Origin: Actinomycetota bacterium
GTDB lineage: Bacteria; Actinomycetota; CADDZG01; JAHWKV01; JAOPZY01
Reading direction: 5' to 3'
Assembly (NCBI GenBank): GCA_025963875.1
Contig: JAOPZY010000259.1
Coordinates: 1-57,352, forward strand
DNA length: 57,352 nucleotides
Each line of letters opens with the position of its first letter. The stretch's first letter is position 1. Made by a program: the position numbers. Shown piece by piece: positions 41,501-47,500 of the stretch.

Positions 41501-44500
41501 GGTCGGCATAGGGATGGAGCTCGGCGTTGTGCCCCCTGCTGTAGTCCCGGGGACCGCTCGGCGAGCCCAGGACCGGCTCGAGCATGATGCCGAGCTGGAG
41601 CATCATCTCGTCCATCCAGACCCCGCCGACGCCGGACAGCGTGATCGTGTCGCTCACATCAGCGAGGTAGGCGAGGATCTCGCCCTCGAGCCAGGCAATC
41701 AGCCCGATCAGCATCTGGGGAGGCAGCGGGACGGTCATCCCAGGGAATGTCGTCCCGCCTCCGACGTGGGTCAGGCCCCGGATGTAGTCGGCGAAGTCCT
41801 CGTCGAACGGCCCGGTCGAGCTGCGGGTGAGCCAGTCCTCGACGACCTCCTTGTCCACGGTCGCCCCGGTCACGCCGAGGCGGGGCAGCCGGGTGGTGAT
41901 GTAGCCGGAGACGGCGTCGGCCATCGCCTTGGTGAACACCCCGAGGTCGCTGCCCAGGTACCGCAGCATTGCCGCCTCGGCGCCTCCGAAGTTGGCGAAG
42001 TCGGCGAGCGGGTTGAAGCCGGGGGTGACGAGGGGCTCTTCACCGAGCGCCAGGTCGATCGTCTTTTCTTCCGTCTCGTCCGGAATCATCCTCGTCTTGG
42101 AACGCTGTGCCACGTGCATCCCTCCTTCTCGGGTTCTTCTCGGGTTGGGGTCGGGCTCGTGTCCGGTCGTCGGGAATTTCCAGGAATTACATCGCGCCGA
42201 ACGTGAGCAGGTATCTGGGGGGTGGGCCGGGAACTGTTGTGGTTTCGATGCCGCGAGTAGTTTTAGCGCCCGCTCACCAGAGGAGTCCGGGCCGGTTCTG
42301 CGTTCGCAGCATGTACCCCATATGCCCCATGGAAACCTCCCCTCAGGCCCTTCAGGGCCGTTGTGCTGGGGCCGGCACCGCAGTAAGCTTGAGGCAGTCG
42401 GGGCTACCCTGCGGGGTCGGCCTAGATTGCGAAGGGTCCGTCTGGCCGGGCGGACCCTTCTCCTTTTCCGGTCGTCTCGTTCGTCGGGTGGTCAATTACC
42501 TCTCGCCCACTATAGGCAATGGTGATTACGGTTCGGTTACCGGCCCGTAAAAACTCCTGTCGTTTTTGGGCGCTTCCTGACGCTTCTCTCCTCCTTTCGG
42601 ATCCTCGCTTCGTACTGGGCGCACCCCTCGAACCACCCACCCCGCCCACGTAGTCCTTTTCGGTGCCTGTGCACCTCCCGGTGTGGTGCGTACGCGGCAT
42701 GCGCCGCGCCCGGTGGGGGCCGATGTAGTAGCTGAGAGCAACCGAGGGTCCTGGTCCCAGGGCCTCTCGACAAAGGCAAACCCGGGGTGACCCGGGGACG
42801 CAAAGTCATGGACCTCCCGCCCACCTTCGCGGCAGGCCGCCAGACCGCCGAAGGAGGCCACCCGTGAAGCGCGCCCGGACCGTTCGTAGCCTCATGATCG
42901 CCGGCACGATGGGAGCGGTTGCGCTCCAGAGCGTCATCCCCGCCTCCGCAGCCAACGCCGGCGCCGAGTCGTGCTTCGTCTCGGCGATCAACGCCGCCCG
43001 CTCCTCGGCGGGCGTCGCGCCGGTCGGCGCCAACGGCGACCTCCTCGGGGTTGCCCGGGTCTGGTCAGGCACCATGGCGAGCGCCGGCCACATCTTCCAC
43101 AACCCCGCCATCGCGGACCTCGCCCCGTCCAACTGGGAGTCCCTCGGCGAGAACGTCGGCGTCGGCCCGACGTGTGCCAAAATCGCCCAGGCGTTCATGA
43201 ACTCGCCCGAGCACCGCAGGAACATCCTCGACCCGTCCTACTCATCGGTGGGCCTCGGCGTCGTCGACGCCCCCGGTGGCGTGATGTACGTCACGGAGGA
43301 CTTCATGGGCACCGGCGGCGCCCCTGCGCACGTCGCCCCCGCCCCCGCCCCGGTCAAGGCCGCCCCGGCCCCCGCCCCCGTCAAAGCACCCCCCGCCCCG
43401 GCCCCAGTAAAGGCCGCCCCCGCCCCAGCCTCCATCGCCGTCCCCAAGCCGGCCCCGCAGCCCACCCCAGCGCCGGCCCCCGCGCTTGTCGTGCCCACCG
43501 CCATGCCGATCGTGGACCGGACCCTCATCGTCCGGGGCGACCTGACCCCCCACGACGCCCCGGCCGCCGGCCTTCACGGGGGCGTCCTCGGTGGCGTCGT
43601 CAAGGCCCTCGGTGCCTTCTTCGCCAAGTAACCCATCTCCTCACTCTCCTTTGCAGCCGGGAGCTCTCGGCCGGGCGGCGGACTCCGCCTGCCCGGCCGT
43701 TTGCACGTGCCGCTGGGCGTCGCATCCCCCAACGGGGGTCCTCCTCCGGCCGCCGTTTTGATACCGGCGGGCCATGGAGCCCCCGGGTTGCAGTGCCGAT
43801 GTACTGGGTGAAGCACCCGAGGGTCCTGATCCCAGGGCCTCTGCGAAAAAGGCAAACCCGGGGCGACCCGGGGACGCAAAGTCATGGACCTCCCGCCCAG
43901 CTCGCGGAAGGCTGCCAGACCGCCAAAGGAGGCCAGCTTGAAGCACCCCCGGGCAGTCCGGAGCCTGATGATCGCCGGCACCATGGCGGCGGTTGCGCTG
44001 CACAACCTCCTCCCCGCCTCGGCATCCCCCGCCGACGAGGAGTCCTGCTTCGCCTCGGCCATCAACTCCGCCCGGACCGCGGCGGGCGTCGCCCCCCTCT
44101 CCATCCAGGGCGACCTGCTCCGGATCTCCCGGGTCTGGTCGCAGACCATGGCGACGGCGGGCCACATCTTCCACAACACCAACATCGTGAACCTCGTCCC
44201 GTCCAACTGGCAGACAGTCGGCGAGAACGTCGGCGTGGGCCCCACCTGCGACTCCATCGCCCAGGCATTCATGAACTCGCCGGAGCACAAGAAAAACATC
44301 CTCGACCCGGCGTTCACGACGGTGGGCGTCGGCGTGGTCGACTCCTCGGATGGCACCGTCTGGGTCACCGAGGACTTCATGGGGACGGGTGCCGCCCTCC
44401 CCGCCCCGGTCGTGGCAAGGCCGACGCCCCCCAAGGTCACCGTCCCGGAGCCAAAGGTGACGACCCCGGCCCCAAAAACCGTCCTGGTCGCTCCGTCCCC

Positions 44501-47500
44501 GCACCACACAGAGCCGGCACCCCCCGCAAAGCCCAGGCTGTCCGTCCCCGCCCTCGCCCCGTCGCCAAGCCACGTCACGGTCGTTGAGAAGCCCACCCCC
44601 CGGCCCTCGGCGACGCCGATCCCCCTCGCCACGCCGATCCTCGACCAGATCGTGACGATCCCCGGCGACAAGGTCCCCGGCGCCGCTCCCACCGCCGGCC
44701 CCGCCCATCCCAGCCGCGGCGTCTTCTCCGCCATCGGTTCCTTCTTCTCTCACCTCCTTTAGGTCCGGGATCCTCCCGTCTAGGTCCTGATCCTCCGTCC
44801 CCACGGGCCCCCCAAGCCCAGGGGGAGGCGAGGCGTGCGCTGCTCGGGCGTGGTGTGCTCAAATGCCGTCATGCCCGAGCGGTGGCGCGTCGAGCCGGGG
44901 AAGCCGGTGAGGCTGGAGAGCATCGATCCCTCCTCGACGCCCGGGGCGCCGGGGGGCAAGGCCGAGACGGTGGCCACGCTGCCCGCCTTCCATGAGCGGC
45001 TCGCCGCCCTGCAGGAGCGCCTGTGGGCGGAGCACCGCCGGTCGCTGCTGGTGGTGCTCCAGGCCCTCGACGCCGGCGGCAAGGACGGCACCGTCCGCCA
45101 CGTCTTCCGGGGCGTCAACCCCCAGGGGACGACGGTCACGTCCTTCAAGGTGCCGGTGGGCGAGGAGGTGGAGCACGACTTCCTCTGGCGGGTCCACCGG
45201 GCGGCGCCCGCCACCGGCGAGATCGGTATCTTCAACCGCTCGCACTACGAGGACGTCCTTGCCGTCCGGGTGCTGGGCCTCGCGCCGGAGAAGGTGTGGA
45301 AGGCCCGCTACGACCTGATCAATGCCTTCGAGCAGACCCTCCACCATGGCGGGACCACCATCGTCAAGATCTACCTGCACATCTCCAAGGAGGAGCAGCG
45401 CCGCCGTCTGCAGGCCCGCCTCGACGACCCCGACAAGCGCTGGAAGTTCTCCGCCGCGGATCTCGAGGCCCTCCGGCACTGGGACGAGTACCGGGAGGCC
45501 TACGAGGATGCGCTCGTGAAGACCTCGACCGCGATCGCGCCCTGGTACGTCATCCCCGCCGACCGCAAGTGGTACCGCAACTGGGTCGTCAGCCGGATCC
45601 TCGTCAAGACCCTGCGCAGGATGGACCCCCGGTATCCCCAGCCGATGGAGCACCTCCCGGCCACGATCGAATAGGGCGATCGTGTGCGCCCCGAACACTA
45701 CGCGACTGCGTGAGGGTGACCTCCCCGCAGCGGCGCTAGGGTAGGGGGCAGAGCGGCGAGGCGGTCCCGCCGCGCTCCAAAGTCAGCGGGAGGCGCCCAT
45801 GGTGGAGAAGTCGACGGTCGACAAGAAGCAGCCGGAGCTCTACCCCAAGCTGAAGCGGGTCGACCCCAGGATCCTGAAGCGCGCGAGCCGGATGACCCCC
45901 GATGTCGAGGCCGCCGACCGGGCCCGCCTGGACGCGCTGGCAGAGGTCGGACCGGGCCAGGCAGTCCTCAGCATCTACGTCAACCTCGACCCCAGCCAGT
46001 TCCCCACGCCCCACCAACGCCAGTCGGAGGTCGTCTCCCTCGCGGACCAGGCGGCGAACCGGGTCGAGGAGGTGGAGGACGAGCACGACCGCAAGGAGCT
46101 CCGCAAGGACGTCCAGAAGGTCCGGTCGTGGCTGCTCGAGCACTCCGAGTGGGACGACGGCGCCCGGGGCGTCGCCATCTTCGTCTCCAACCGCCGGGAC
46201 CTCTTCGAGATCCTGAAGCTGGCCGTGCCGGTGGCGTCGCTCGTCGCCGTCGAGGAGACCCCCTACGTCGAGCCCCTGACCGCGCTGGCCCCCCGCCCGG
46301 CTGTCTGCGTGGCGCTCATCGACCGGGCGAGGACGAGGATCTTCTGCGGGGACGAGGACGGGCTGGAGGAGGTCATCCACGAGCGGGACGACGACGTCCC
46401 GGGCCGCCACGACCAGGGCGGCTGGTCACAGGGCCGCTACCAGCACCACGTCGAGGACCACGTCGACCGCCACCTCAACGACGTCGCCGCCGAGCTCCTC
46501 GAGCTCTACAAGGAGGGTCGGGTCGAGCGCCTGGTGATCGGGTCCACCGAGGAGATGCTGCCGAGGATCCTCGACCACCTCCACGCCTATCTCCGGGAGC
46601 GCTTCGCCGGGCGGATCGACGTCGACGTCAACACCGCCAACGCGGACGAGGTACGGCACCTGGTCGCCCCCATCCTGGAGGAGGAGGACCGGCGGAGGGA
46701 GGCCGAGCTCTTCGAGCGCCTCCGCCGCGAGCTGGCGGTCGGGGGCAGGGCCGCCTACGGTCTCGAGGGCACCCTGGCGGCGTTGAACGAGGCAAGGGTG
46801 GAGGTGCTGTTTGCCAAGCCGGACCTGGTGGAGCCCGGTGTCTTCTGCCCCAAGTGCGGATGGCTCGGCGTACCGCCCCAGCCCGGGGGCAGAAATCCTC
46901 TCGCTGAGGCCGCCGGTCCGGAGTGCCCGTTGGATGGGGAAGCGCTCGAGCACACGGACAACATCGTGGAGAAGGCCGTGGAGCGGGCGATCCAGCTGTC
47001 GGCGGAGGTCTGGATGCCCAGGTTCCAGGACGACCTCGACCGGCTCGGCGGTATCGCAGCACTTCTGCGCTTCTAGATAGGCGGTTGTGCTTCTAGACAA
47101 ATAGTCAAATCGGTGCAGATCTAGGCACCCGGATCGACATCGCGGCTCAGGTTGATCAATATTGCCCGGTGCTTCGTAACAGGTCACTGCGGCTCTGGCG
47201 CGCTGCCATCGTCGGTTCCACTCTGTTGCTGGTACTCACCGTCGGGTTCGTCGTCGCCTCCAGCGCCCTGAAGCTCCCCGCCAAGGCGAGCGCCCCGACC
47301 GCCGCGAGGAAGCAGGCGGTCGCAACGGCAGCGCTCGCAGCTGCCAACTCGGCGGCGGCGTTCACCCCGCCTCCACCTGCTCCGCCGCCACAACCTCTGC
47401 CCCCACCGCCCCCACCACCGCCGGCTCCCCGGACGACGGCTGCCGGCACGGTGTGGCTCTGCCGGCCCGGCCTGGCCGACAACCCGTGCACCCCGGACCT

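What a model noticed while it worked through the whole genome (the two positions that open the first line are those of the whole stretch)
42766..44762. Six c-di-GMP riboswitches of three Rfam classes, two of them variant classes, ahead of secreted-protein genes
The genome has six c-di-GMP-type riboswitch aptamers. Two copies of the variant class c-di-GMP-I-GGC stand in tandem units, each 10 nt in front of its own CAP/SCP-domain secreted protein (g01912, g01913; the coordinates given). One c-di-GMP-II-GAG variant (C114:26059-26143) heads an operon of two small proteins with SipW-type signal peptides and two Ig-like surface proteins (g01679-g01682); a c-di-GMP-I aptamer at the start of C76 heads a similar small secreted protein followed by an archaeal/SipW-type signal peptidase I fused to DUF5305 (g01144, g01145); another (C10:22051-22134) heads a GGDEF-EAL enzyme (g00206), and the last (C215:8523-8598) runs into the contig end. 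In this actinobacteri [...]
Evidence so far: rna.tsv rows with 42-65 bits, all over Rfam's cuts, and neighbouring genes. g01145: TIGR02228 archaeal-type signal peptidase I E 7e-17, SipW model E 2e-8, DUF5305. g01679: weak camelysin/TasA-family N-terminus (PF12389, E 0.045; call 133), one homologue named 'peptide with SipW-like signal peptide' and one with PF12389 among 120; AlphaFold2 model pLDDT 83, beta-sandwich, TasA fibre second in Foldseek but only at E 0.025. Of 40 loci with homologues of g01679 in other genomes, 1 (a Mycobacteriales MAG, the closest) has the same c-di-GMP-II-GAG aptamer upstream.
(Added by a program. Inside this text positions count along the whole contig: contig position 1 is position 1 of the stretch shown here. 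"Call 12" and the like, gene names such as g00115 and contig names such as C1 are that model's own, and its searches are not shown. The text may have been shortened before it was handed on; [...] marks where a part breaks off. The agent that wrote the report below was given it as the finding of a first reader that could run no searches.)

Follow-up and report, generated by a model that had tools for sequence, protein, structure and literature searches.

The report
c-di-GMP riboswitches before secreted CAP genes
Two neighbouring genes for secreted CAP-domain proteins each sit behind an ordinary c-di-GMP-sensing RNA switch that overlaps their ribosome-binding site, a pairing that recurs across many actinobacteria and links these poorly understood proteins to the cell's second-messenger signalling.

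Summary
The two Rfam hits are real (42766-42853 and 43842-43928, + strand). Each ends 10 or 9 nt before a paralogous secreted CAP/YkwD-like gene.

1. The "variant class" label is a scoring artefact. Both aptamers carry the canonical ligand contacts (G20, A47, C92 equivalents). They have A where the c-di-GMP-I-GGC model has its one distinguishing conserved G. So do 79 of 79 aligned aptamers from 41 related genomes and 26 of 26 from a phylum-wide sample.
2. The genome has five loci, not six. The last 127 nt of C215 equal the first 127 nt of C76.

The C114 "GAG" aptamer reads GAA, which matches neither the GAG consensus nor the canonical one.

New here: CAP genes are the commonest gene behind this aptamer, at 23-25 of 96 in the class and 9 of 26 phylum-wide.

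The Shine-Dalgarno sequence lies directly after the 3' strand of P1 and pairs with the 5' flank. This suggests translational repression at high c-di-GMP. The polarity is inferred, not shown.

Verdict: ordinary c-di-GMP-I riboswitches with a conserved target class that I did not find described in the literature I could search.

The parts
42719..42727 (+). Promoter-like block GCCGATGTA (a -10-like element of the sigma-28/WhiG type), 47 nt upstream of aptamer 1.
   Evidence: It is conserved in both window units and in the leaders of G001 and G002 from the same genus. At the -35 spot the sequence reads CATGCG, so the published WhiG criteria are not met. No transcription start data are available.
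42743..42769 (+). P0 hairpin. Its 3' strand contains the anti-SD (GGCCTC, 42760-42765) and the 5' strand of P1. It competes with the extended P1.
   Evidence: It is part of the minimum-free-energy fold. On 9 family-f1 leaders it is 75.8% paired against 36-48% when the partner is slid, and 5 pairs show changes on both sides.
42766..42853 (+). c-di-GMP-I aptamer 1, with canonical G20, A47 and C92 equivalents and a GUGA tetraloop.
   Evidence: RF03167 65.0 bits and RF01051 58.0 bits. Helices covary across 79 homologues.
42853..42857 (+). Shine-Dalgarno GGAGG of CAP1. It starts at the last base of P1, and 42854-42859 (GAGGCC) is complementary to 42760-42765.
   Evidence: Read directly from the sequence. 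The extension is 76% paired across 9 leaders, without covariation.
42864..43631 (+). CAP1: signal peptide, CAP/YkwD-like domain, a Pro/Ala-rich linker and a short amphipathic C-terminal tail (255 aa).
   Evidence: PF00188 E 2.9e-14. TIGR02909 scores 58.7 bits, below its cut-off of 171. GC3 is 0.91.
43668..43699 (+). G+C-rich hairpin followed by GTTTGCA. It is terminator-like and lies between the two units.
   Evidence: Folding of 43640-43720 gives -42.8 kcal/mol, z -2.07. The pattern scan does not call it, because the U tract is weak.
43795..43803 (+). Second copy of the GCCGATGTA promoter-like block.
   Evidence: The two leaders align closely from this point onwards.
43818..43845 (+). P0 hairpin of unit 2. 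It contains the anti-SD GGCCTC at 43836-43841.
43842..43928 (+). c-di-GMP-I aptamer 2, with a canonical core and a GCGA tetraloop.
   Evidence: RF03167 60.5 bits and RF01051 59.1 bits.
43928..43932 (+). Shine-Dalgarno GGAGG of CAP2. 43929-43934 (GAGGCC) pairs with 43836-43841.
   Evidence: Sequence. Six consecutive pairs at the junction.
43938..44762 (+). CAP2, a paralogue of CAP1 with the same architecture (274 aa, TTG start).
   Evidence: PF00188 E 1.6e-15. 53% identity to CAP1.

Best explanation
The locus is a tandem duplication of one regulatory and coding unit. Each unit has its own promoter-like block, a 5' hairpin (P0), a canonical c-di-GMP-I (GEMM-I) aptamer, and a gene for a secreted, probably envelope-tethered CAP/YkwD-like protein.

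The Shine-Dalgarno sequence begins at the last base of the aptamer's closing helix P1. The six bases just 5' of the aptamer (GGCCUC) are its exact complement.

Proposed mechanism:
- When c-di-GMP binds, P1 is stabilised and extends over the SD, and translation is blocked.
- At low c-di-GMP, the P0 hairpin captures the anti-SD and the 5' strand of P1. This frees the SD, and the CAP proteins are made.

Shown here: the aptamers, their canonical ligand-contact bases, the geometry of SD and anti-SD, and the conservation of the aptamer-CAP pairing.

Inferred: c-di-GMP as the ligand, translational control, and above all the OFF polarity.
For: Aptamer:
- E-values are 3.9e-13 and 7.5e-12.
- Across 79 homologous aptamers the helices are 85.4% paired, against 25-47% when the partner is slid. 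There are 174 cells with changes on both sides, and 0 of 500 shuffles reach the observed values.

Ligand:
- The G20 equivalent is G in 78 of 79, the A47 equivalent is A in 79 of 79, and the C92 equivalent is C in 76 of 79.
- These three bases are the c-di-GMP contacts in Vc2 (PMC4744006, passage seen).

Expression platform:
- The start codon lies 7-15 nt after the aptamer in most leaders; 66 of 96 have it within 20 nt.
- An anti-SD (CTCC or CCTC) lies in the 10 nt before the aptamer in 24 of 65 such leaders, against 1-6 of 65 in windows 12-48 nt further upstream.
- P0 shows compensatory changes within family f1.
- The P0 state is 4.4-7.3 kcal/mol more stable than the extended-P1 state without ligand. 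I judge that gap payable by ligand binding, from recalled Vc2 affinity rather than from a call.

Polarity:
- In relative G014:C11 a CAP leader places a terminator after the aptamer. Its antiterminator uses the same post-P1 GGAGGAGGAG. Forcing P1 gives the terminator; freeing the 3' segment gives the antiterminator.

Selection:
- The aptamer precedes CAP genes in 17 of 41 related genomes across four families and in 9 of 26 further loci across the phylum.
Against: - There is no ligand-binding, reporter or transcript data. No RNA run is listed for this stretch.
- Folding predicts the SD to be mostly paired in the ligand-free state too (P unpaired 0.21 and 0.05). It pairs with CCUCC or GGCCGCC inside the unfolded aptamer. 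Thermodynamics therefore does not settle the polarity.
- The SD/anti-SD extension shows no covariation, because the SD cannot vary.
- The strict junction-pair count barely exceeds permuted partners (1.39 against 1.14).
- The anti-SD is seen in only 24 of 65 leaders.
- P0 support rests on 9 related sequences, and 6-15 of 500 shuffles reach the observed values.
- In G001 the syntenic first unit has lost the 5' half of its aptamer but keeps its promoter block and SD. Riboswitch control is therefore dispensable for at least one copy.
- The G014 terminator case is a single example.
Confidence: 0.6

Rival explanations
1. The aptamer and ligand are the same, but the polarity is reversed: an ON switch. 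Without ligand, the SD is held by a CCUCC or GGCCGCC segment inside the unfolded P3 region. c-di-GMP binding folds the aptamer, withdraws those segments and allows translation. CAP proteins would then be made in the high-c-di-GMP (sessile) state.
For: - Minimum-free-energy folds of both leaders pair the SD with aptamer-internal segments when P0 forms.
- From general knowledge, not tested here: c-di-GMP often switches on surface and matrix proteins, and these CAP proteins look envelope-tethered.
Against: - In the ligand-bound fold the SD lies inside a GC-rich continuation of P1 (6 of 6 pairs in unit 2). It would be at least as occluded as in the free state.
- The internal CCUCC is specific to the window's P3 and is absent from most CAP-associated relatives (sequences). 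The 5'-flank anti-SD, in contrast, is enriched (24 of 65 against 1-6 of 65).
- The G014 terminator/antiterminator layout reads as OFF.
Confidence: 0.2
2. The aptamers belong to a true specificity variant, as the Rfam name c-di-GMP-I-GGC suggests, and sense a ligand other than c-di-GMP.
For: - RF03167 outscores RF01051 by 7.0 and 1.4 bits and passes its gathering score of 59.
- I could not read the paper that defined the variants. My reading that 'GGC' means positions 20, 47 and 92 is an inference from the two consensus lines plus the known contacts.
Against: - The only strongly conserved base that differs between the two Rfam consensus lines is G against A after GACGC, and both window aptamers have A.
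- A is invariant in 79 of 79 relatives, including hits of up to 73.5 bits, and in 26 of 26 phylum-wide hits of up to 76.4 bits. The RF03167 model simply captures G+C-rich actinobacterial canonical aptamers.
- The G20 and C92 equivalents are canonical as well.
- One of the five loci controls a GGDEF-EAL enzyme, as expected for c-di-GMP.
Confidence: 0.08
3. The aptamers are conserved leftovers with little regulatory effect. Expression of the CAP genes is set mainly by the promoter (the GCCGATGTA block, possibly read by a WhiG-like sigma factor).
For: - G001 keeps the promoter block and SD of the first unit after losing half of the aptamer.
- G005:C10 keeps an intact aptamer in front of a broken CAP gene.
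- Only 23 of 138 CAP-domain matches in the 41 genomes have the aptamer.
Against: - Both window aptamers are intact at every conserved core position and score over the cut-offs.
- Helix covariation across 79 homologues indicates purifying selection on the structure.
- The SD is fused to P1 in most leaders, which is hard to keep by chance.
Confidence: 0.1

Closest known systems
Vc2 c-di-GMP-I (GEMM-I) riboswitch upstream of tfoY in Vibrio cholerae
   Same: Same aptamer family and the same three ligand-contact bases, G20, A47 and C92 (PMC4744006, passage seen). It is described as an off-switch (abstract of bioRxiv 10.1101/617340, seen in the listing).
   Different: The P3 is short and G+C-rich. 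The SD is fused directly to the 3' strand of P1, with the anti-SD in the 5' flank and a competing 5' hairpin. The target is a secreted CAP protein, not a transcription factor. No experiments exist for the window's RNAs.
Rfam RF03167, c-di-GMP-I-GGC variant aptamer
   Same: It is the best-scoring Rfam model for both aptamers (65.0 and 60.5 bits).
   Different: The conserved G after GACGC, which distinguishes the model's consensus from the canonical one, is A here and in every relative examined. This is membership by score only.
[quoted passage not shown]
   Same: - It is c-di-GMP control in the same phylum.
- Type IV pilin and GGDEF/HD-GYP genes are among the targets here too.
- Published WhiG promoter criteria are met upstream of 19 of 96 aptamers.
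- G000 has a WhiG-family sigma factor and an ORF with the twin RsiG motif.
   Different: - That system acts on a sigma factor, not on RNA.
- Neither paper mentions riboswitches: 0 occurrences in PMC8325347 and in bioRxiv 2026.01.14.699351 (passages only).
- The window's two units lack the required -35 element.
Bacillus subtilis YkwD / bacterial CAP (SCP/PR-1-like) extracellular proteins
   Same: CAP domain (PF00188) with weak similarity to TIGR02909 (58.7 and 70.0 bits), preceded by a signal peptide.
   Different: The scores are below the TIGR02909 cut-off of 171. The proteins also carry a Pro/Ala-rich linker and a C-terminal amphipathic tail. I know of no riboswitch for YkwD (recalled, not searched).
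Clostridioides difficile c-di-GMP riboswitch regulon (flagella, pili, adhesins, Zmp1)
   Same: One second messenger controls many surface and secreted proteins through multiple riboswitches per genome (topic of review PMC6366702; only its title and the start of its abstract were seen, in the listing; the regulon members named here are recalled).
   Different: The mechanism there is mostly transcriptional termination or antitermination in a low-G+C Firmicute. CAP-domain targets are not part of that regulon as I recall it.

Membership tests
c-di-GMP-I riboswitch (Rfam RF01051, GEMM-I) | Covariance-model score at or above the gathering score (35 bits) | tested here: met
   58.0 and 59.1 bits.
c-di-GMP-I riboswitch (Rfam RF01051, GEMM-I) | Ligand-contact bases G20, A47 and C92 (Vc2 numbering) | tested here: met
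   Both window aptamers have G, A and C at the equivalent columns. Across 79 relatives the counts are G 78, A 79 and C 76. The contacts are as stated in PMC4744006.
c-di-GMP-I riboswitch (Rfam RF01051, GEMM-I) | Two-hairpin junction fold (P2 with a GNRA tetraloop, P3, closing P1) supported by covariation | tested here: met
   The tetraloops are GUGA and GCGA. The 18 modelled pairs are 85.4% paired, 13 pairs show changes on both sides, and 0 of 500 shuffles reach the score. P1 itself is only 57% paired in the MAFFT alignment.
c-di-GMP-I riboswitch (Rfam RF01051, GEMM-I) | Selective binding of c-di-GMP | not testable with these tools
   This needs in-line probing, ITC or dialysis.
c-di-GMP-I-GGC variant (Rfam RF03167) | Covariance-model score at or above the gathering score (59 bits) | tested here: met
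   65.0 and 60.5 bits.
c-di-GMP-I-GGC variant (Rfam RF03167) | G in place of A47. This is the conserved base that separates its consensus (GACGCGAA) from the canonical one (GACGCAAA). That 'GGC' names positions 20, 47 and 92 is my inference. | tested here: not met
   Both aptamers read GACGCAAAG. The consensus lines were compared. None of the 79 aligned relatives or the 26 phylum-wide hits has G there.
c-di-GMP-II-GAG variant (Rfam RF03169), for the C114 aptamer named in the finding | GAG in GGCGAGACCG, where the canonical class II consensus reads GUGCAACCG | tested here: not met
   C114 reads GGCGAAACCG. The consensus lines were seen. Four aptamers in relatives (G014:C22, G015:C35 twice, G016:C37) do read GAG. 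The scores are 53.2 (RF03169) against 51.5 (RF01786, below its 53.5 cut-off).
CAP superfamily (Pfam PF00188) | Domain match over the curated cut-off (21.1 bits) | tested here: met
   54.3 and 58.4 bits.
YkwD family (NCBIfam TIGR02909) | Score over the curated cut-off (171 bits) | tested here: not met
   58.7 and 70.0 bits.
WhiG/sigma-28-dependent promoter | -10 element GCCGA with the central CGA | tested here: met
   GCCGATGTA at 42719-42727 and 43795-43803.
WhiG/sigma-28-dependent promoter | -35 element T(A/C)AA or CTCA, 16-17 nt upstream (criteria of bioRxiv 2026.01.14.699351, passages seen) | tested here: not met
   No match in either window unit or in any CAP leader of family f1. The genus shows CATG at that spot.

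The most novel reading that the evidence does not exclude
Secreted CAP/YkwD-like proteins are a core, phylum-wide output of c-di-GMP signalling in Actinomycetota. In many lineages they, together with type IV pilins and c-di-GMP enzymes, sit under a two-tier c-di-GMP lock.
- Tier 1, transcription: a WhiG-type promoter, whose sigma factor is sequestered by RsiG plus c-di-GMP.
- Tier 2, translation or termination: a c-di-GMP-I riboswitch in the same leader.

Both tiers would shut off at high c-di-GMP, giving a coherent feed-forward gate. That would assign bacterial CAP proteins to the low-c-di-GMP (dispersal or motile) programme.
Probability: 0.25. Interest if true: 0.6.

Novelty: new member of a known kind. 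Interest (0 to 1): 0.35.

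Why it matters
1. Annotation. Above-threshold RF03167 ('GGC variant') calls in G+C-rich Actinomycetota carried the canonical A47 in every case examined here. Reading them as altered-specificity riboswitches would mislead.

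2. Biology. Bacterial CAP/SCP/YkwD-like proteins have no established function (recalled, not searched). A conserved c-di-GMP riboswitch in front of them gives a testable physiological context, namely the second-messenger switch between lifestyles. The pairing is seen in 17 of 41 related genomes and in 9 of 26 further loci across the phylum.

3. Regulatory logic. WhiG-type promoters and c-di-GMP riboswitches occur together in the same leaders (19 of 96). This suggests layered c-di-GMP control. Neither of the two WhiG/RsiG papers I consulted mentions riboswitches (passages only).

Tried and rejected
- The paper that defined the variant classes could not be read: not held by DOI or by the PMC id I tried, and the title search did not list it. 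The meaning of 'GGC' and 'GAG' is therefore inferred from consensus lines.
- Three papers mention c-di-GMP-I-GGC only as a list item (PMC12452182 passages).
- No paper in the library combines c-di-GMP and riboswitch terms with CAP or SCP terms.
- A sequence search of CAP1 against solved structures gave 0 hits.
- The search for related loci with CAP1 in genome contigs gave only 2 loci. This was of no use for a reciprocal count, so I counted PF00188 matches in the same 41 genomes instead.
- The permutation test of junction pairing is uninformative. All SDs and anti-SDs look alike, so swapped partners still pair. I replaced it with positional controls.
- Duplex energies differ only modestly (-5.3 against -3.8 to -4.8 kcal/mol).
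- Thermodynamic folding does not settle ON against OFF.
- A permissive Rfam scan of 42100-44900 found nothing besides the two aptamers.
- A canonical WhiG -35 element was looked for in the window units and not found.
- The flagellin promoter of G000 (C210) matches the motif only loosely. Genes behind exact motif matches in five f4 genomes include GGDEF and HD_5 proteins but no flagellar genes. 'Flagellar regulon' is therefore not supported.
- My first pick of the ORF after G007:C44 was wrong (a 69-aa ORF). It was corrected.
- One search was an empty script.

Full report
**What is in the window**

An Rfam scan of the whole window gives three hits. Two are matches to RF03167 (c-di-GMP-I-GGC), at 42766-42853 (65.0 bits, E 3.9e-13) and 43842-43928 (60.5 bits, E 7.5e-12), both on the + strand. 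The third is a tRNA elsewhere. A permissive scan of 42100-44900 adds nothing.

Each aptamer is followed by an ORF with high third-position G+C (0.91 and 0.92):
- 42864-43631 (GTG start, 255 aa)
- 43938-44762 (TTG start, 274 aa). The longer ATG ORF from 43884 would run through the aptamer.

Both ORFs match Pfam CAP PF00188 (E 2.9e-14 and 1.6e-15). They are 53% identical paralogues. Both match the YkwD model TIGR02909 weakly, below its cut-off. Each has an N-terminal signal-peptide-like segment, a Pro/Ala-rich linker and a short amphipathic C-terminal tail.

The two leaders align closely from about 47 nt upstream of the aptamer to the start codon. A G+C-rich hairpin followed by GUUUGCA lies between CAP1 and the second leader (43668-43699). 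The locus is therefore a tandem duplication of a complete unit. It is not two aptamers on one leader.

The flanking genes look unrelated: a protoglobin-domain protein on the minus strand, then PPK2 and a baeRF-family protein downstream. The same arrangement, CAP-CAP-PPK2, is present in the genus relative G001.

**Are these "variant class" aptamers?**

The same two RNAs score 58.0 and 59.1 bits with the canonical model RF01051, whose gathering score is 35. The margin in favour of the GGC model is only 7.0 and 1.4 bits.

I compared the two consensus lines printed by cmscan:
- canonical: ...gggGACGCAAAgCc...GcUgCCgaa
- GGC: ...GGGACGCGAAgCc...GcUGCcgaag

The only strongly conserved base that differs is the one after GACGC: A in the canonical model and G in the GGC model. 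By my count on the Vc2 sequence this is A47. G20, A47 and C92 are the three bases that contact c-di-GMP (PMC4744006, passage seen). So 'GGC' most plausibly names G20, G47 and C92.

Both window aptamers read GACGCAAAG. The cmscan match line is blank at that column. Relatives behave the same way:
- In an alignment of 79 distinct aptamers of 45 bits or more from G000 and 40 relatives, this column is A in 79 of 79. The G20 equivalent is G in 78, and the C92 equivalent is C in 76.
- The lower-scoring hits listed also read A by eye.
- In a sample of 151 genomes across the phylum, 60 have a match at E 1e-10 or better. All 26 newly fetched best loci, at up to 76.4 bits, read A.

RF03167 thus captures canonical, G+C-rich actinobacterial c-di-GMP-I aptamers. 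The name says nothing about their ligand.

Caveat: I could not read the paper that defined the variants. The naming is inferred.

**The other aptamers in the genome**

C215:8523-8598 and C76:1-61 are the same aptamer. The last 127 nt of C215 equal the first 127 nt of C76, which is the signature of neighbouring nodes in an assembly graph. The genome therefore holds five loci, not six.

- C76: a 129-aa ORF with no Pfam match, followed by a Peptidase_S24/DUF5305 protein.
- C114: a 176-aa ORF with only a faint camelysin match (E 0.061), followed by Ig-like proteins.
- C10: a GGDEF-EAL protein that starts 292 nt after the aptamer.

The C114 aptamer scores 53.2 bits with the GAG model and 51.5 with canonical class II. 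The canonical consensus reads GUGCAACCG and the GAG consensus reads GGCGAGACCG. C114 reads GGCGAAACCG. This is a hybrid, 'GAA', and I would not predict its ligand. Four aptamers in relatives do read GAG.

**Are the aptamers real and under selection?**

On the 79-sequence alignment, the 18 modelled base pairs are 85.4% paired, against 25-47% when the 3' partner is slid by 1-3 columns. Thirteen pairs show changes on both sides, in 174 cells. None of 500 shuffles reaches the observed scores. The sequences are related, so the shuffle count overstates significance. The slid controls are the fairer comparison, and they are clear.

**What the aptamer controls across relatives**

RF03167 finds 102 matches in 35 of 41 genomes: G000 plus 40 relatives from four families of one class. 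I fetched 97 of them. The five left out are the four weakest and one that no locus covered.

I called the first downstream ORF for 96 and scanned them against Pfam. Results:
- CAP: 22 by Pfam.
- Plus G007:C44, where I had picked the wrong ORF and one search places a CAP match just downstream. That makes 23.
- BLAST clustering adds a broken CAP gene (G005:C10) and a short ORF (G007:C1). That makes 25.
- Next come a 17-member family without a Pfam match, and 10 type IV prepilins.
- Smaller groups include response regulators, a GGDEF-EAL protein and assorted secreted enzymes.

CAP-linked aptamers occur in 17 of the 41 genomes and in all four families. Conversely, 23 of 138 PF00188 matches in these genomes carry the aptamer, and 2 of 6 in G000.

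Phylum-wide, 9 of the 26 further loci are followed by CAP genes and 4 by pilins.

These counts include genomes flagged unpublished (G007, G009, G027, G028, G030, G035, G038; G003 and G019). CAP-linked aptamers remain in 14 published genomes without them.

**Expression platform and likely mechanism**

In 66 of 96 leaders the start codon lies within 20 nt of the aptamer's 3' end, mostly 7-15 nt. Control is therefore mainly translational.

In both window units the SD GGAGG begins at the last base of P1. The next bases (GAGGCC) are the exact complement of the six bases just upstream of the aptamer (GGCCUC). A ligand-stabilised P1 would continue into a helix that buries the SD.

Supporting observations:
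- Across the 65 short leaders with enough upstream sequence, CTCC or CCTC lies in the 10 nt before the aptamer in 24. In windows 12-48 nt further upstream it occurs in 1-6.
- Just upstream, a hairpin (P0: 42743-42769 and 43818-45) uses the same GGCCUC and the 5' strand of P1. It is part of the minimum-free-energy fold.
- In nine family-f1 leaders P0 is 75.8% paired, against 36-48% when slid, with five pairs changed on both sides.
- Without ligand, the P0 state is 4.4-7.3 kcal/mol more stable than the extended-P1 state.

The simplest reading is as follows. At low c-di-GMP, P0 forms, the SD is free and CAP is made. At high c-di-GMP, P1 plus its extension forms, the SD is masked and translation is off.

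A relative gives independent support. The CAP leader of G014:C11 has a terminator whose antiterminator uses the same post-P1 GGAGGAGGAG. Forcing P1 yields the terminator.

Against this reading:
- Folding also pairs the SD with aptamer-internal segments in the free state.
- The SD helix cannot covary.
- Nothing has been measured.

I put OFF at about 0.65 given a working switch, and ON at about 0.2-0.25.

**Promoters and the wider c-di-GMP circuit (beyond the finding)**

Published WhiG promoter criteria are T(A/C)AA-N16-GCCGA or CTCA-N16-17-GCCGA (bioRxiv 2026.01.14.699351, passages seen; PMC8325347, passages seen). They are met within 80 nt upstream of 19 of 96 aptamers. Coding-region control windows give 0, 0, 3 and 0. 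The matching leaders include G000's own C215/C76 locus.

Further context:
- All 41 genomes have one FliA/WhiG-family sigma factor over the curated cut-off. In G000 it is at C170:8286-8966, next to an HD-GYP-like gene.
- G000:C134 encodes an ORF with two E(X)3S(X)2R(X)3Q(X)3D motifs, the RsiG signature (motif from PMC8325347).
- Neither paper mentions riboswitches (0 occurrences each).

For the window's two units, however, only the -10-like GCCGATGTA is present. The -35 spot reads CATG-like sequences, conserved within the genus. No CAP leader of family f1 meets the criteria. The two-tier idea is therefore a lead for relatives. It is not a finding for this locus.

**Verdict**

These are two ordinary c-di-GMP-I riboswitches with canonical binding sites. 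Each is fused to the ribosome-binding site of a secreted CAP-domain gene in a duplicated unit.

The "variant class" and "six aptamers" elements do not survive checking.

What is worth keeping is the conserved aptamer-CAP association. I found no paper describing it in the one library search I ran for it. It gives bacterial CAP proteins a physiological context.

Noticed in passing
G000:C215:8538-8664 and G000:C76:1-127: The end of C215 and the start of C76 are identical over exactly 127 nt. The aptamer called on each contig is one locus split by the assembly.
   Followed up: yes
80 nt upstream of aptamers in 41 genomes, for example G000:C215:8484-8510: A WhiG/sigma-28-type promoter (CT[AC]AAG-N14-15-GCCGA[AT]A) precedes many c-di-GMP-I aptamers. 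By published criteria it is met in 19 of 96 leaders, against 0-3 in control windows. Pilin and CAP leaders of family f4 are the main carriers.
   Followed up: partly
G000:C134, ORF open from about 3663 (+), 210 codons: This ORF has two copies of the RsiG c-di-GMP-binding motif E(X)3S(X)2R(X)3Q(X)3D, about 100 residues apart. It is a candidate twin-motif anti-sigma RsiG. The WhiG-family sigma factor is at G000:C170:8286-8966, beside an HD-GYP-like gene.
   Followed up: partly
G000:C114:26059-26143: The class II aptamer reads GGCGAAACCG. The GAG variant consensus has GGCGAGACCG and the canonical consensus has GUGCAACCG. This 'GAA' hybrid has an unpredictable ligand. True GAG forms occur in G014, G015 and G016.
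   Followed up: partly
Alignment A3 (79 aptamers): 16 of 79 aptamers have GGCGC instead of GACGC (A to G, four bases before A47). Family-f2 aptamers have CAAGC there and GGCGAC in place of GGCAAAC. The f2 aptamers precede a 17-member family of roughly 155-230-aa proteins with no Pfam match.
   Followed up: no
L030 (G001:C36:1100-4184), minus strand: In the genus relative, the syntenic first CAP unit keeps GCCGATGTAG and the SD but has lost the 5' half of the aptamer. The remnant CCGCCAGACCGCCGATGG is duplicated. The second unit is intact.
   Followed up: yes
window 42431-42460 (+): A strong terminator-like hairpin with a T-rich tail lies inside the 640-nt intergenic region upstream of unit 1. 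It is conserved in G001. There is no + strand gene or Rfam family in front of it, so it may mark a small unannotated transcript.
   Followed up: no
L048 (G014:C11:26322-28399): This CAP leader has a 105-nt spacer containing an intrinsic terminator. Its antiterminator is built from the GGAGGAGGAG directly after P1. It is a transcriptional version of the same switch.
   Followed up: partly
L080 (G005:C10:27195-29292): An intact aptamer (55.1 bits) is followed by a CAP gene interrupted after 3 codons and then truncated. This is a decaying unit.
   Followed up: no
window 41004-42119 (-) and 45799-47076 (+): The neighbouring genes encode a protoglobin-domain protein (PF11563, E 6e-18) and a bacterial eRF1-like baeRF_family10 protein (E 1e-22). 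No link to the riboswitch units was seen.
   Followed up: no
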